Shown: piece after piece, positions 48,438-49,474 of the stretch
Position numbering within the stretch: position 1 is the stretch's first letter
Layout: the number at the start of each line of letters is the position of its first letter
Virus record (IMG/VR): IMGVR_UViG_3300001336_000001
Coordinates: 202,836-266,835 of that record
Source: a virus
Taxonomy: Duplodnaviria; Heunggongvirae; Uroviricota; Caudoviricetes
Direction: 5' to 3' (one strand)
Length of the DNA: 64,000 bases
Position numbers and translations under genes: made by a program
Notes under the pieces: model-generated
Database searches by the model: none
What the model saw: the letters and a program-made list of their open reading frames with translations, nothing else
Told to the model about the DNA's origin: nothing

Positions 48438-48466
48438 TTTATAAATATATCCCATATATTTATAAA
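48438..48466. promoter_or_regulatory. Perfect 13-bp inverted repeat carrying ATATTTAT on both strands
   Basis: TTTATAAATATAT-ccc-ATATATTTATAAA. Confidence 0.65.
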
Positions 48467-48481
48467 CATATAGTTAACTAC

Positions 48482-48539
48482 GTATTAGTTTCGAGTCGCA
48501 AGGGCTTTAGAGTTGTTTAGGTAACAAAGAAATTAGTAC
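48482..48539 (+). ncRNA. Putative structured 5' leader (three-way junction)
   Basis: 11-bp closing stem GTATTAGTTTC/GAAATTAGTAC (2 G-U pairs) enclosing two small hairpins. Confidence 0.4.
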
Positions 48540-48568
48540 ATTAATAACAAAAATTAAAAAGTTAAAAA

Positions 48569-49414
48569 ATGAAAATTAGTTTAAACAATGGGGTTACTAC
48601 ACCCCAAGCACATGTTGCTATTAACAAAAGTAGGTTAAAAGTTTATAATAAAAACTCAAGTTCCCCAACCTTTTACCTACAAAAGGGTCAAGAATTCCAA
48701 CTAGAGTTATTTAATCCAACGACTGGAACCATATTAGCAAAAATTTTCTTAAATGGTAACCTTATCTCTCAAGGAGGTCTTGTCTTAAGACCAGGGGAAC
48801 GCCTTTTTCTCGATAGATATATCGATGTACCAAAGAAGTTCTTATTCGACACGTATGAGGTCTCAAATACTGACGAGGTTAAAAAGGCTATTGAAGATAA
48901 TGGTGACTTTAAAGTTGAATTCTACAAAGAATTTACTATTCCAACTTACCCTATTGTAGGTGGGGTGCACACTATGGTTTTCGAGGATTATATATACCCA
49001 AATATTGGTACTACAACAATTAGTGATAATACCCAATGTACCAATTTAAATTATGATAATTCAACAAATTATAGCACCACCCTGGGTTTAACGACTAACT
49101 CACTGACGACTAACCAAACAAACTTTTCTACTAGTAGTATAGGTCAAAATAAAAGGAGGTTAGTTAAGCAAAGTAAATCAGATAGTATTGAAACTGGTAG
49201 AGTTGAAAAAGGGTCAACATCAAATCAAAAACTAACCACTGTTAATATGTCTTGGGAAATATTTCCATTTCACACAGTGGAGTATAAATTATTACCAGTA
49301 TCACAAAAAATAAACACTACAGGAGATATCATGATTAAAAGATATTGCACAAATTGTGGTAGTAAATTAGGTAAAACACATAAATTCTGTGCTAACTGTG
49401 GTGCTAAAGCATAA
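48569..49414 (+). CDS. Protein with an N-terminal beta-sandwich, Thr/Asn-rich linker and C-terminal zinc ribbon
   Basis: EFQLELFNP...LVLRPGER.FLDR; C-terminal CTNCG......KFCANCG. Confidence 0.8.
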   Translation: MKISLNNGVTTPQAHVAINKSRLKVYNKNSSSPTFYLQKGQEFQLELFNPTTGTILAKIFLNGNLISQGGLVLRPGERLFLDRYIDVPKKFLFDTYEVSNTDEVKKAIEDNGDFKVEFYKEFTIPTYPIVGGVHTMVFEDYIYPNIGTTTISDNTQCTNLNYDNSTNYSTTLGLTTNSLTTNQTNFSTSSIGQNKRRLVKQSKSDSIETGRVEKGSTSNQKLTTVNMSWEIFPFHTVEYKLLPVSQKINTTGDIMIKRYCTNCGSKLGKTHKFCANCGAKA

Positions 49415-49442
49415 ACAAAGATAATAGTTAACTATATAAAAC

Positions 49443-49474
49443 AAAAAAGGCTAGAAGAAATTCTAGCCTTTTTT
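49443..49474. terminator. Bidirectional terminator
   Basis: AAAAAAGGCTAGAA-gaaa-TTCTAGCCTTTTTT between convergent genes. Confidence 0.85.

What the first reader, a model, noticed from the sequence alone, without database searches (positions are those of the whole stretch)
48438..49474. Zinc-ribbon gene whose transcript ends are complementary and whose leader is structured
Seen, in order: a 13-bp perfect hairpin with late motifs on both strands (48438-48466); ATATAGTTAACTA (48468-48480); a three-way-junction leader (48482-48539); the ORF; TAGTTAACTATAT (49425-49437), the exact reverse complement of 48468-48480; then a terminator. The TAGTTAACTA core is itself palindromic, so the pair also reads as a direct repeat. 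Inference: either an mRNA closed into a panhandle with a cis-regulatory RNA (perhaps bound by its own zinc-ribbon product), or a gene cassette with defined recombination ends. An antisense late promoter also points into the upstream structural gene.
Basis: partly seen in the sequence, partly recalled or inferred. Interest (0 to 1): 0.7.

Follow-up and report, generated by a model that had tools for sequence, protein, structure and literature searches.

The report
End-paired phage mRNA with Y-shaped leader
One gene of this 288-kb jumbo phage makes a message whose first bases pair with the bases just after its stop codon, next to a conserved Y-shaped leader RNA; both features recur in over 100 related uncultured phages, match no described RNA family, and probably protect the message or restrict its translation to complete copies.

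Summary
Observation confirmed.

Within this genome the inverted repeat is no more than chance would give. Comparative data carry the case:
- In 114 distinct homologous loci, 85 have a contiguous 5'/3' helix of 10 bp or more, against 4-6% in controls.
- The helix sits at fixed positions, and its flanking pairs covary.
- In the leader, 96% of cells pair and 15 of 21 pairs show compensatory changes. Two G·U pairs never vary, which puts the structure in RNA of the + strand.
- No Rfam family matches, and a covariance model finds one copy in the genome. It also finds the leader in Lak-type megaphages.

The 5' arm starts at the predicted +1. The 3' arm abuts the terminator.

A third element, AGUUAA just before the AUG, is also complementary to the 5' arm.

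Best reading: a closed mRNA that shields its ends and probably favours translation of complete transcripts. Function is inferred.

The recombination-cassette reading is not supported, although the gene is absent from this site in some relatives. The "late motif" reading needs revision.

This scan has already reported the same element on other genomes.

The parts
48433..48438 (+). -35-like hexamer TTCACT (4 of 6 matches to TTGACA)
   Evidence: It lies 16 nt upstream of TATATT. In relatives this position reads TTGACA, with 5 or more of 6 matches in 78 of 85 loci.
48438..48466 (.). Perfect 13-bp all-A/T hairpin with loop CCC, overlapping the promoter spacer and the -10 box
   Evidence: Sequence. 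It is one of about 22 perfect hairpins with stems of 11 bp or more in the genome, against 0-4 in shuffles. The left half is mismatched in relatives 93-96% identical in protein, L202 and L204, and the hairpin is absent in L206.
48455..48463 (+). -10-like box TATATTTAT, containing the genome's gene-proximal motif ATATTTAT
   Evidence: TATATT is found in 77 of 85 relatives. ATATTTAT lies within 60 nt upstream of an ORF start in 32% of its genome copies, against 7-16% for eight of nine shuffled-order control words; the ninth control, TATTTATA (31%), overlaps the motif itself.
48468..48480 (+). 5' arm ATATAGTTAACTA, at or within 1-3 nt of the predicted transcript start
   Evidence: The helix starts 5-7 nt after the -10 hexamer in most loci. 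Conservation and covariation. All 13 pairs are in the minimum-free-energy fold of the 1015-nt RNA.
48482..48539 (+). Three-way-junction leader. P1 is 48482-48492 with 48529-48539. P2 is 48493-48497 with 48503-48507. Junction strand UAGA is 48508-48511. P3 is 48512-48516 with 48521-48525. Junction strand AAA is 48526-48528.
   Evidence: Single-sequence fold. RNAalifold finds compensatory changes in 15 of 18 pairs. Pair counting gives 96.3% paired, against 35-49% when partners are slid, with 15 of 21 pairs compensatory and two invariant G·U pairs. No Rfam match. The covariance model gives 76.5 bits and finds this as the only convincing hit in the genome.
48540..48568 (+). Conserved A/U-rich spacer ending in AGTTAA (48560-48565), 3 nt before the ATG
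   Evidence: Alignment A2. AGTTAA lies 3-6 nt before the ATG in 74 of 86 loci (within 24 nt upstream in 80 of 86). It is complementary to the 5' arm: a helix of 6 or more is found in 86% of loci, against 5% with a shuffled initiation region.
48569..49414 (+). ORF of 281 aa: Ig-like beta-sandwich, disordered N/S/T-rich insert, C-terminal zinc ribbon
   Evidence: Pfam PF13240. AlphaFold2 model with mean pLDDT 77. Only generic Ig-like matches among solved structures, Z below 7. 2720 homologous protein clusters; nearly all carry no name or 'hypothetical protein', apart from a few stray automatic labels.
49425..49437 (+). 3' arm TAGTTAACTATAT, starting 11 nt after the stop codon
   Evidence: Exact reverse complement of 48468-48480. 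The position is conserved, +8 to +20 after the stop codon.
49443..49474 (.). Bidirectional intrinsic terminator AAAAAAGGCTAGAA-GAAA-TTCTAGCCTTTTTT
   Evidence: In 75 of 86 relatives a terminator-like hairpin starts 0-10 nt after the 3' arm.

Best explanation
The zinc-ribbon gene is a single-gene transcription unit whose RNA folds into a closed form.

Anatomy:
- The first 10-15 nucleotides of the transcript (5' arm) pair with a stretch 8-20 nt after the stop codon (3' arm). That stretch lies directly in front of the terminator hairpin.
- Next to the 5' arm sits a conserved 58-nt three-way-junction leader. Its junction strands (UAGA and AAA) are conserved, and its closing stem has two invariant G·U pairs.
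- The 5' arm is also complementary to AGUUAA, 3-6 nt before the AUG. This pairing is much weaker: about -4 kcal/mol, against about -14 for the end helix.

Proposed working (inferred):
- While the RNA is incomplete or 3'-truncated, the 5' arm is free to pair with the initiation region and dampen translation.
- Once the 3' arm is transcribed, it captures the 5' arm. This tucks the 5' end against the terminator hairpin, out of reach of 5'-end-dependent RNases, and leaves the start site open.
- The three-way junction, with its invariant wobble pairs, is most likely a protein-recognition element or a structural 5' stabiliser that tunes this process.

Shown here: the positions, the conservation, the covariation and the predicted thermodynamics.
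Inferred: the transcript ends, the effect on stability and translation, and any binding partner.
For: - The helix is present in 85 of 114 distinct loci, against 4-6% in controls, at fixed positions: the 5' arm ends 86-97 nt before the ATG and the 3' arm starts 8-20 nt after the stop.
- Five flanking pairs covary through up to four Watson-Crick types; 0 of 1000 shuffles reach the observed pairing.
- Some arms have an entirely different sequence yet stay complementary, for example ATCGTGATTGA with TCAATCACGAT, and ATGATTAACAT with ATGTTAATCAT.
- Promoter TTGACA-16/17-TATATT is conserved, and the helix begins 5-7 nt after the -10 box.
- A terminator follows the 3' arm within 0-10 nt in 75 of 86 loci.
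- In full-length folds the end helix has probability 0.93-0.97 in 8 of 8 loci tested.
- Leader junction: 96.3% of cells pair, 15 of 21 pairs are compensatory, and U·G and G·U pairs are invariant in 94 of 94 sequences.
- The covariance model finds the leader only at this gene in the genome. It also finds it in distant huge phages and in Lak-A1.
- In L078 a GIY-YIG endonuclease gene is inserted behind the leader, and the arms still bracket the whole 1.9-kb transcript.
- 5' arm with initiation region: a helix of 6 or more in 86% of loci against 5% when shuffled. In the one lineage with different arms, the initiation region has changed to match.
- Duplex energies.
Against: - There are no RNA data.
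- 29 of 114 loci lack a clear end helix, so it is not indispensable.
- Non-Watson-Crick cells in the arms give only a weak strand signal: 17 G·T-type against 10 A·C-type.
- The 5' arm to initiation-region pairing is weak. Leader-only folds give it a mean occupancy of 0.17. Its covariation rests on one lineage of three related loci.
- In many loci the upstream gene has no terminator of its own, so read-through transcripts would carry the 5' arm internally rather than at the end.
Confidence: 0.6

Rival explanations
1. RNase III-type processing stem. Late read-through transcripts from the upstream structural gene carry both arms internally. The long-range helix at the base of the gene is cut, which releases a monocistronic mRNA, as with the stems flanking rRNA or the T7 early mRNAs.
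For: In many loci the promoter follows the stop codon of the upstream 470-aa gene directly, with no terminator between, so read-through is likely. The helix encloses exactly one gene.
Against: The helix is 9-16 bp long, which is short for RNase III, by general knowledge of that enzyme. It starts at the predicted +1 of a conserved promoter of its own. No conserved internal loop or bulge that could mark a cleavage site was seen.
Confidence: 0.12
2. Autoregulatory leader. The zinc-ribbon protein, or another phage RNA-binding protein, binds the three-way junction and represses or activates its own translation, in the manner of T4 gp32 or ribosomal-protein leaders. The end helix would be secondary.
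For: Junction nucleotides are invariant and P1 has two invariant G·U pairs, which is typical of protein-recognition sites. The element is strictly linked to this one gene from jumbo phages to megaphages. The protein carries a zinc ribbon.
Against: Nothing shows that the protein binds nucleic acid. Its fold matches are generic Ig-like sandwiches with Z below 7. This reading does not explain the covarying end helix.
Confidence: 0.15
3. DNA-level element. The arms are ends of a mobile or recombining gene cassette (PeSL-like modular shuffling or site-specific recombination), or paired operators for a dimeric DNA-binding protein that recognises the GTTAAC palindrome.
For: The core is palindromic. 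The region between the 470-aa gene and the capsid gene varies in content: HNH, GIY-YIG and other inserts. At least six loci (five distinct; L188 and L201 look alike) have the 470-aa gene and the capsid gene with no zinc-ribbon gene between them. L199 keeps a single 3'-arm-like sequence plus the terminator right after the upstream stop codon.
Against: The arms are inverted, so recombination between them would invert rather than excise. They lie inside the promoter-terminator unit. In L199 the promoter is missing too, so the arms are not the breakpoints. The arm sequence is not a repeated family: only two copies exist in 288 kb. Flank covariation and tolerated G·U pairs fit pairing, not a fixed recognition site. 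One lineage has no GTTAAC at all.
Confidence: 0.05
4. Chance complementarity in an A/T-rich genome.
For: Within this genome, inverted repeats of 12 nt or more at this spacing are common: 319 observed against about 200 in shuffles. The 10-mer is no more frequent than its reversed control.
Against: Conservation of position, together with covariation, in more than 80 independent sequences.
Confidence: 0.01

Closest known systems
B. subtilis hbs mRNA 5'/3'-UTR interaction (Braun, Durand and Condon 2017, PMC5737220; abstract read)
   Same: A long-range helix of about 14 bp joins the 5' UTR and 3' UTR of one short, structured, monocistronic mRNA. In hbs it modulates RNase access to the leader and ties stability to translation initiation.
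   Different: [quoted passage not shown] Here the helix involves the very first transcript bases, abuts the terminator, covaries across more than 80 phage lineages, and comes with a conserved three-way junction. No nuclease site is known.
hok mRNA of plasmid R1: tac/fbi fold-back (as summarised in PMC9841398)
   Same: The 5' end pairs with the 3' end of the full-length mRNA. The same 5' element has an alternative internal partner, so the integrity of the 3' end decides whether the mRNA can be translated.
   Different: The logic is opposite. In hok the closed full-length form is silent and 3' trimming activates it. Here the end helix should free the start site. There is no small toxin ORF, the product being a 281-aa Ig-like/zinc-ribbon protein, and no antisense RNA is known.
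S. aureus icaR 5'UTR-3'UTR pairing (Ruiz de los Mozos 2013, as described in PMC7821165)
   Same: The 3' UTR of an mRNA pairs with its own 5' UTR.
   Different: In icaR the 3' UTR acts as an anti-RBS that blocks translation and creates an RNase III substrate. Here the 3' arm pairs with the 5' terminus, not with the initiation region.
PeSL composite terminator/promoter cassettes of T4-type phages (PMC2839356; PMC4122927, abstract read)
   Same: A promoter-gene-terminator unit lies in a variable region of a T4-type structural module. Hairpins overlap the promoter.
   Different: PeSLs are repeated motifs that act as DNA recombination points between unrelated genes. The arms here are unique in the genome, inverted, transcribed, and covary as an RNA helix.

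Membership tests
Any Rfam 15 family (riboswitches, ribozymes, leaders) | Covariance-model match at or near the family's gathering score | tested here: not met
   cmscan of 48300-49600 at E up to 10 returned only sub-threshold sRNA-type matches over the terminator and nothing on the leader.
Long-range 5'/3'-UTR interaction of a bacterial-type mRNA (hbs-like) | Complementary stretches in the 5' UTR and 3' UTR of the same transcript that can form a helix of about 10-15 bp | tested here: met
   13 bp in the window. 85 of 114 loci have 10 bp or more. Covariation. Pair probability 0.93-0.97 in full-length folds.
Long-range 5'/3'-UTR interaction of a bacterial-type mRNA (hbs-like) | Demonstrated effect on RNase cleavage or mRNA half-life | not testable with these tools
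hok-type fold-back mRNA (type I toxin-antitoxin) | 5' end pairs with the 3' end and has an alternative internal partner | tested here: met
   End helix. The 5' arm is also complementary to AGUUAA in front of the AUG.
hok-type fold-back mRNA (type I toxin-antitoxin) | Small hydrophobic toxin ORF | tested here: not met
   The ORF encodes a 281-aa soluble-looking Ig-like/zinc-ribbon protein. No Rfam antisense or sRNA family reaches threshold. A new antisense RNA was not searched for.
PeSL (promoter-early stem-loop) shuffling cassette | The same composite terminator/promoter motif repeated at many sites in the genome, flanking variable genes | tested here: not met
   The arm 10-mer occurs only twice in the 288-kb genome. 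The leader model has a single hit.
T4-type late promoter TATAAATA | Motif enriched shortly upstream of (late) gene starts | tested here: not met
   22 copies in the window against 17 expected. Genome-wide, 14% lie within 60 nt upstream of an ORF start, in the range of the shuffled-order controls, against 32% for ATATTTAT.
Sigma-70-type promoter | TTGACA, a 16-18 nt spacer, then a TATAAT-like hexamer upstream of the transcript | tested here: inconclusive
   Relatives have TTGACA (5 or more of 6 matches in 78 of 85) and TATATT (77 of 85) with a 16-17 nt spacer. The window itself has only TTCACT-16-TATATT. No start site has been mapped.
Pfam Zn_Ribbon_1 (PF13240) | Score above the gathering cut-off, with four conserved Cys | tested here: met
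   26.4 bits against a cut-off of 25, residues 259-280. C260, C263, C274 and C277 are invariant in 76 sequences.
k-junction (kink-turn in a three-way junction) | Three-nucleotide bulge followed by tandem sheared G·A/A·G pairs at the junction | not tested
The junction strands UAGA and AAA could give one G·A pair. No 3D modelling was done.

The most novel reading that the evidence does not exclude
The module is a completion-sensing translational switch, gated by the Y-shaped leader.
- The 5'-terminal arm masks the start site on nascent or 3'-damaged transcripts.
- It is pulled away only when the 3' arm, the last element made before the terminator, appears. The protein is then made solely from intact messages.
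- The three-way junction stacks on the arm and carries invariant wobble pairs. It would be an aptamer for a phage or host factor, or for a small ligand, that sets which partner the arm chooses.

This would be the reverse logic of hok, and a new class of cis-regulatory RNA conserved from jumbo phages to Lak megaphages.
Probability: 0.22. Interest if true: 0.8.

Novelty: new variant of a known kind. Interest (0 to 1): 0.68.

Why it matters
Only a handful of bacterial mRNAs are known to pair their 5' and 3' UTRs (hbs, icaR, hok, RNAIII). According to the review read here (PMC7821165), those 3' UTRs are not conserved even among close relatives.

Here the pairing has been kept by compensatory evolution in more than 80 distinct phage lineages. 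The linked three-way-junction leader matches no Rfam family and reaches as far as Lak megaphages, whose protein is about 38% identical.

This gives a natural, alignment-rich system for asking what closing an mRNA does in a bacterial-type cell. The possibilities are end protection, translation restricted to complete transcripts, and a processing signal. It also adds a candidate new RNA family for the Rfam-style catalogues of phage cis-regulatory RNAs.

The protein itself belongs to a very large family (2720 clusters) of unknown function. It sits next to the capsid gene of huge phages.

Tried and rejected
- Rfam scan of the region: nothing on the leader.
- blastn of the region against the phage collection: no match. 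Only protein-level matches were found.
No expression or end data could be obtained, and read laying was not used.
- RNAduplex on wide flanks: too permissive, with long interior loops. It was replaced by an ungapped-helix search.
- Fold searches of the AlphaFold2 model. Foldseek against PDB gave nothing at E of 0.001 or below. VIA-align wide gave only generic Ig-like sandwiches, Z 5-6.6. BFVD gave uncharacterised proteins of phages, giant viruses, nudiviruses and nimaviruses. No function follows from any of these.
- PHROGs and Pfam for the gene and its neighbours: only the zinc ribbon, Gp23 for the capsid gene, and an endonuclease VII/HNH-like family for 50120-50803.
- Search for the zinc-ribbon gene elsewhere on five contigs that lack it at this site: no match. 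These contigs are only 5-20% complete, so absence from those genomes is not shown.
- Hammerhead-like reading of the junction (strand lengths of about 0-1, 4 and 3 nt): rejected, because the invariant hammerhead core sequences are absent and Rfam ribozyme models do not match.
- TATATTTAT as a genome-wide over-represented word: 49 copies against about 42 expected from composition, so it is not enriched as such. The signal lies in its position relative to gene starts.
- G·U against A·C asymmetry in the arms as a strand test: 17 against 10, too weak to decide. The strand is fixed instead by the invariant G·U pairs of the leader.
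Full report
**Setting.** The window is bases 202836-266835 of a 287,855-bp IMG/VR phage genome with direct terminal repeats, 30.6% G+C. The surroundings are a T4-type structural module.
- On the + strand lie several large genes of unknown family, including a 470-aa gene at 47017-48429.
- Converging on the - strand are a scaffold-like acidic protein, a Gp23-family major capsid protein (50938-52692; Pfam E 2e-72), an HNH/endonuclease VII-like gene (50120-50803) and a 198-aa gene.

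The finding lies between the two converging blocks.

**The observation.** Every element is present as described:
- the 13-bp perfect hairpin at 48438-48466;
- ATATAGTTAACTA at 48468-48480;
- a leader that folds into a three-way junction at 48482-48539;
- an ORF at 48569-49414;
- the exact reverse complement TAGTTAACTATAT at 49425-49437;
- a strong bidirectional terminator at 49443-49474.

Taken alone, the inverted repeat is not remarkable.
- The 10-mer core occurs twice in the genome, both copies here, but so does its reversed control word.
- The genome holds 319 exact inverted repeats of 12 nt or more, spaced 200-3000 nt apart, against about 200 in Markov shuffles.

The case therefore rests on comparison.

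**Relatives.** The protein has 2720 homologous clusters in the large protein collection. Nearly all carry no name or 'hypothetical protein', apart from a few stray automatic labels.
- It is found in Lak megaphages and other huge phages at 37-45% identity.
- It is found in many freshwater, marine and soil metagenome contigs at 50-70% identity.

I located the ORF in 174 fetched loci. 165 of them had enough flank on both sides, and these reduce to 114 distinct flank sequences.

**The end helix.** In 85 of the 114 loci there is a contiguous helix of 10 or more (Watson-Crick pairs counted as 1, G·U as 0.5). It joins a 55-nt stretch upstream of the leader to the first 45 nt after the stop codon. Shuffled or reversed 3' regions reach this in 4-6% of trials.
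- The position is fixed. The 5' arm ends 86-97 nt before the ATG, and the 3' arm starts 8-20 nt after the stop.
- Most arms share a GTTAAC core, but the flanks differ and stay complementary. Examples are TGTGTTAACTC with GAGTTAACACA, TACGTTAACTC with GAGTTAACGTA, and GCGTTAACT with AGTTAACGC.
- Some lineages have other cores altogether, such as ATGATTAACAT with ATGTTAATCAT, and ATCGTGATTGA with TCAATCACGAT.
- Anchored on the core, five flanking pairs covary through up to four Watson-Crick types. None of 1000 shuffles reaches the observed pairing.
- G·U pairs occur in both directions. The excess over A·C (17 against 10) is too small to fix the strand by itself.
- Folding the whole transcript of about 1 kb gives the end helix a pair probability of 0.93-0.97 in all eight loci tested. 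All 13 pairs are in the minimum-free-energy structure of the window's RNA, beside the junction and the terminator.

**The leader.** An alignment of 94 leaders supports a three-way junction.
- P1 has 11 pairs, with one position that pairs in only two thirds of sequences. P2 has 5 pairs and P3 has 5.
- 96.3% of cells form standard pairs, against 35-49% when partners are slid by 1-3 columns.
- 15 of 21 pairs show changes on both sides, in 237 cells. None of 500 shuffles reaches any of the measures.
- Two wobble pairs in P1 (U·G and G·U, two pairs apart) are invariant in 94 of 94 sequences. On the opposite strand they would be C·A mismatches, so the structure is RNA of the + strand.
- The junction strands UAGA and AAA are nearly invariant.

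No Rfam family matches. A covariance model built from the alignment gives these results:
- one convincing hit in the 288-kb genome, at this gene (76.5 bits; the next hit has E 0.6);
- the leader upstream of the homologous gene in three huge-phage records, with E from 1e-11 to 3e-5;
- with filters off, the leader in Lak-A1 at 25 bits, where the single-sequence fold gives the same topology.

The leader is therefore an old, gene-specific cis element.

**Transcript boundaries.**
- In 85 loci with a canonical helix, the upstream DNA reads TTGACA (5 or more of 6 matches in 78), then 16-17 nt, then TATATT (77 of 85). The first paired base lies mostly 5-7 nt after the -10 hexamer, which is at about +1.
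- The window has a weaker version, TTCACT-16-TATATT, followed by 7 nt and then the arm.
- In 75 of 86 loci a terminator-like hairpin begins 0-10 nt after the 3' arm.
- The helix thus ties the first bases of the RNA to the last bases before the terminator.
- In L078 a GIY-YIG endonuclease gene has been inserted behind the leader, with a second, degenerate leader copy in front of the zinc-ribbon gene. The arms still bracket the whole 1.9-kb unit. The helix follows the transcript, not the ORF.

**The hairpin and the 'late motifs'.** Perfect hairpins with stems of 11 bp or more are far more frequent than chance (about 22 against 0-4). Almost all are A-tract/GC-stem/T-tract terminators. The one at 48438 is the odd all-A/T case.
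- Its right half is the conserved -10 box.
- Its left half is mismatched in relatives whose protein is 93-96% identical. Those relatives also lose the + strand TATAAATA. The hairpin is absent in a 69% relative.
- Genome-wide, TATAAATA is no more often found just upstream of an ORF than shuffled-order control words (14%). ATATTTAT is so placed in 32% of its copies, typically 12-16 nt before the ATG and without a -35 consensus.

The 'antisense promoter' is the non-conserved mirror half of a local palindrome.

**A third complementary site.** AGTTAA lies within 24 nt upstream of the ATG in 80 of 86 loci, and 3-6 nt before it in 74 of them.
- It is the same word as the core of the 3' arm, and hence complementary to the 5' arm.
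- The 5' arm forms a helix of 6 or more with its own initiation region in 86% of loci, against 5% with a shuffled region.
- In the one lineage with ATCGTGATTGA arms, the initiation region reads AAATTAAATTATG and pairs as CGUGAUU with AAUUAUG, which covers the start codon.
- Cross-combinations between arm classes score lower: 4.1-4.9 against 6.0-6.1.
- The pairing is weak. The median duplex energy is -4.1 kcal/mol, against -14.2 for the end helix. Leader-only folds give a mean occupancy of 0.17, rising to 0.8 in some loci.
- It offers a reason why the core is conserved while the flanks covary: the core has two partners.

I regard this as suggestive. It rests on one independent co-change.

**Cassette test.**
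- Seeded by the zinc-ribbon protein, 90 of 100 loci have the 470-aa gene directly upstream, and 36 of 102 have the capsid gene convergent within 1.5 kb. The HNH and 198-aa genes of the window are rare inserts.
- Seeded by the 470-aa gene instead, at least six of 20 loci (five distinct; L188 and L201 look alike) have that gene and the capsid gene with other content between them. They have no zinc-ribbon gene and no leader.
- One of them, L199, has a sequence homologous to the 3' UTR, 3' arm and terminator of its zinc-ribbon-bearing relative L193, right after the upstream stop codon.

This is an empty-site-like allele with a single arm. The promoter is missing as well, however, so the breakpoints are not the two arms, and inverted arms would not excise in any case. 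The gene unit is dispensable or movable at this site, but the arms do not behave as recombination ends. The contigs are fragments, so loss from those genomes is not shown.

**The protein.** The AlphaFold2 model has mean pLDDT 77.
- Residues 13-121 and 206-246 form an Ig-like beta-sandwich.
- Between them lies a disordered N/S/T-rich insert.
- The C-terminus is a four-Cys zinc ribbon.

Solved structures give only generic sandwich matches, Z 6.6 or below. Predicted viral structures give uncharacterised proteins of phages and of large eukaryotic DNA viruses. Nothing here shows RNA binding.

**Interpretation.** The structural claims are well supported: an RNA helix closing the message, and a Y-shaped leader. 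The function is inferred.
- The nearest experimentally studied case is the 14-bp 5'/3'-UTR helix of B. subtilis hbs mRNA, which limits RNase access (PMC5737220).
- The nearest in logic is hok mRNA, whose 5' end alternates between the 3' end and an internal partner (PMC9841398). There the closed form is the silent one.
- I favour end protection together with translation restricted to complete transcripts.
- A processing stem for read-through transcripts and autoregulation through the junction remain open.

**Earlier notes of this scan.** The scan has already reported this same element on homologous loci of other genomes, with similar conclusions. I reached mine from my own calls before reading those notes.

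Noticed in passing
window 49443-49462 and 50098-50117: A 20-nt stretch of the terminator (AAAAAAGGCTAGAAGAAATT) recurs as an inverted copy on the far side of the 198-aa gene, so near-identical terminators bracket that gene. The gene is present downstream of the zinc-ribbon gene in only 3 of 102 related loci, so it is an insert.
   Followed up: partly
window 50120-50803 (- strand): An HNH/endonuclease VII-like gene (PHROG 1035, E 1.5e-14) lies between the 198-aa gene and the capsid gene. It is found downstream in only 9 of 102 related loci, so it is probably a homing endonuclease insert.
   Followed up: partly
whole genome (G000); e.g. window 46996-47003: The motif ATATTTAT, often followed by A/T-rich sequence such as AAATAAAA, lies 12-16 nt upstream of the ATG of at least 50 genes, with no -35 consensus. 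It is a candidate phage-specific (late?) promoter that gives very short leaders. The zinc-ribbon gene is exceptional in having a leader of about 100 nt.
   Followed up: partly
L078:520-1480: A GIY-YIG homing-endonuclease ORF of 232 aa is fused to the first ~19 codons of the zinc-ribbon gene, directly behind the leader. It is followed by a second, degenerate leader copy (49.5 bits) and a complete zinc-ribbon gene. L098 and L179 show similar inserts near the leader.
   Followed up: partly
L199:4404-4480, compared with L193:5440-5520: This allele lacks the promoter, leader and zinc-ribbon ORF but keeps the 3'-arm-like AATTACGATATTAAAATG and the terminator, immediately after the stop codon of the 470-aa gene. 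A sugar epimerase/dehydratase-like gene follows.
   Followed up: partly
L005:2915-2935 and 3814-3850 (LR756500): Two separate 5'/3' complementary segments are present: GTTAAGG with CCTTAAC, and ACTTTGTT with AACAAAGT. They lie in the same order on both sides, so both cannot form as one nested helix. The second overlaps P1 of the leader.
   Followed up: no
window 48569-49411 (protein model): Foldseek against predicted viral structures matches uncharacterised proteins of giant viruses, nudiviruses, iridoviruses and white spot syndrome virus (wsv390-like), with E from 1e-9 to 1e-4 and TM 0.3-0.5. This may be a widespread viral Ig-like sandwich family.
   Followed up: no
L186:3757-3900, L191:4416-4560, L190:1727-1830: In some relatives a tiny Cys-rich ORF (CxC and CxxC repeats, about 30-40 aa) lies between the 470-aa gene and the zinc-ribbon unit.
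   Followed up: no
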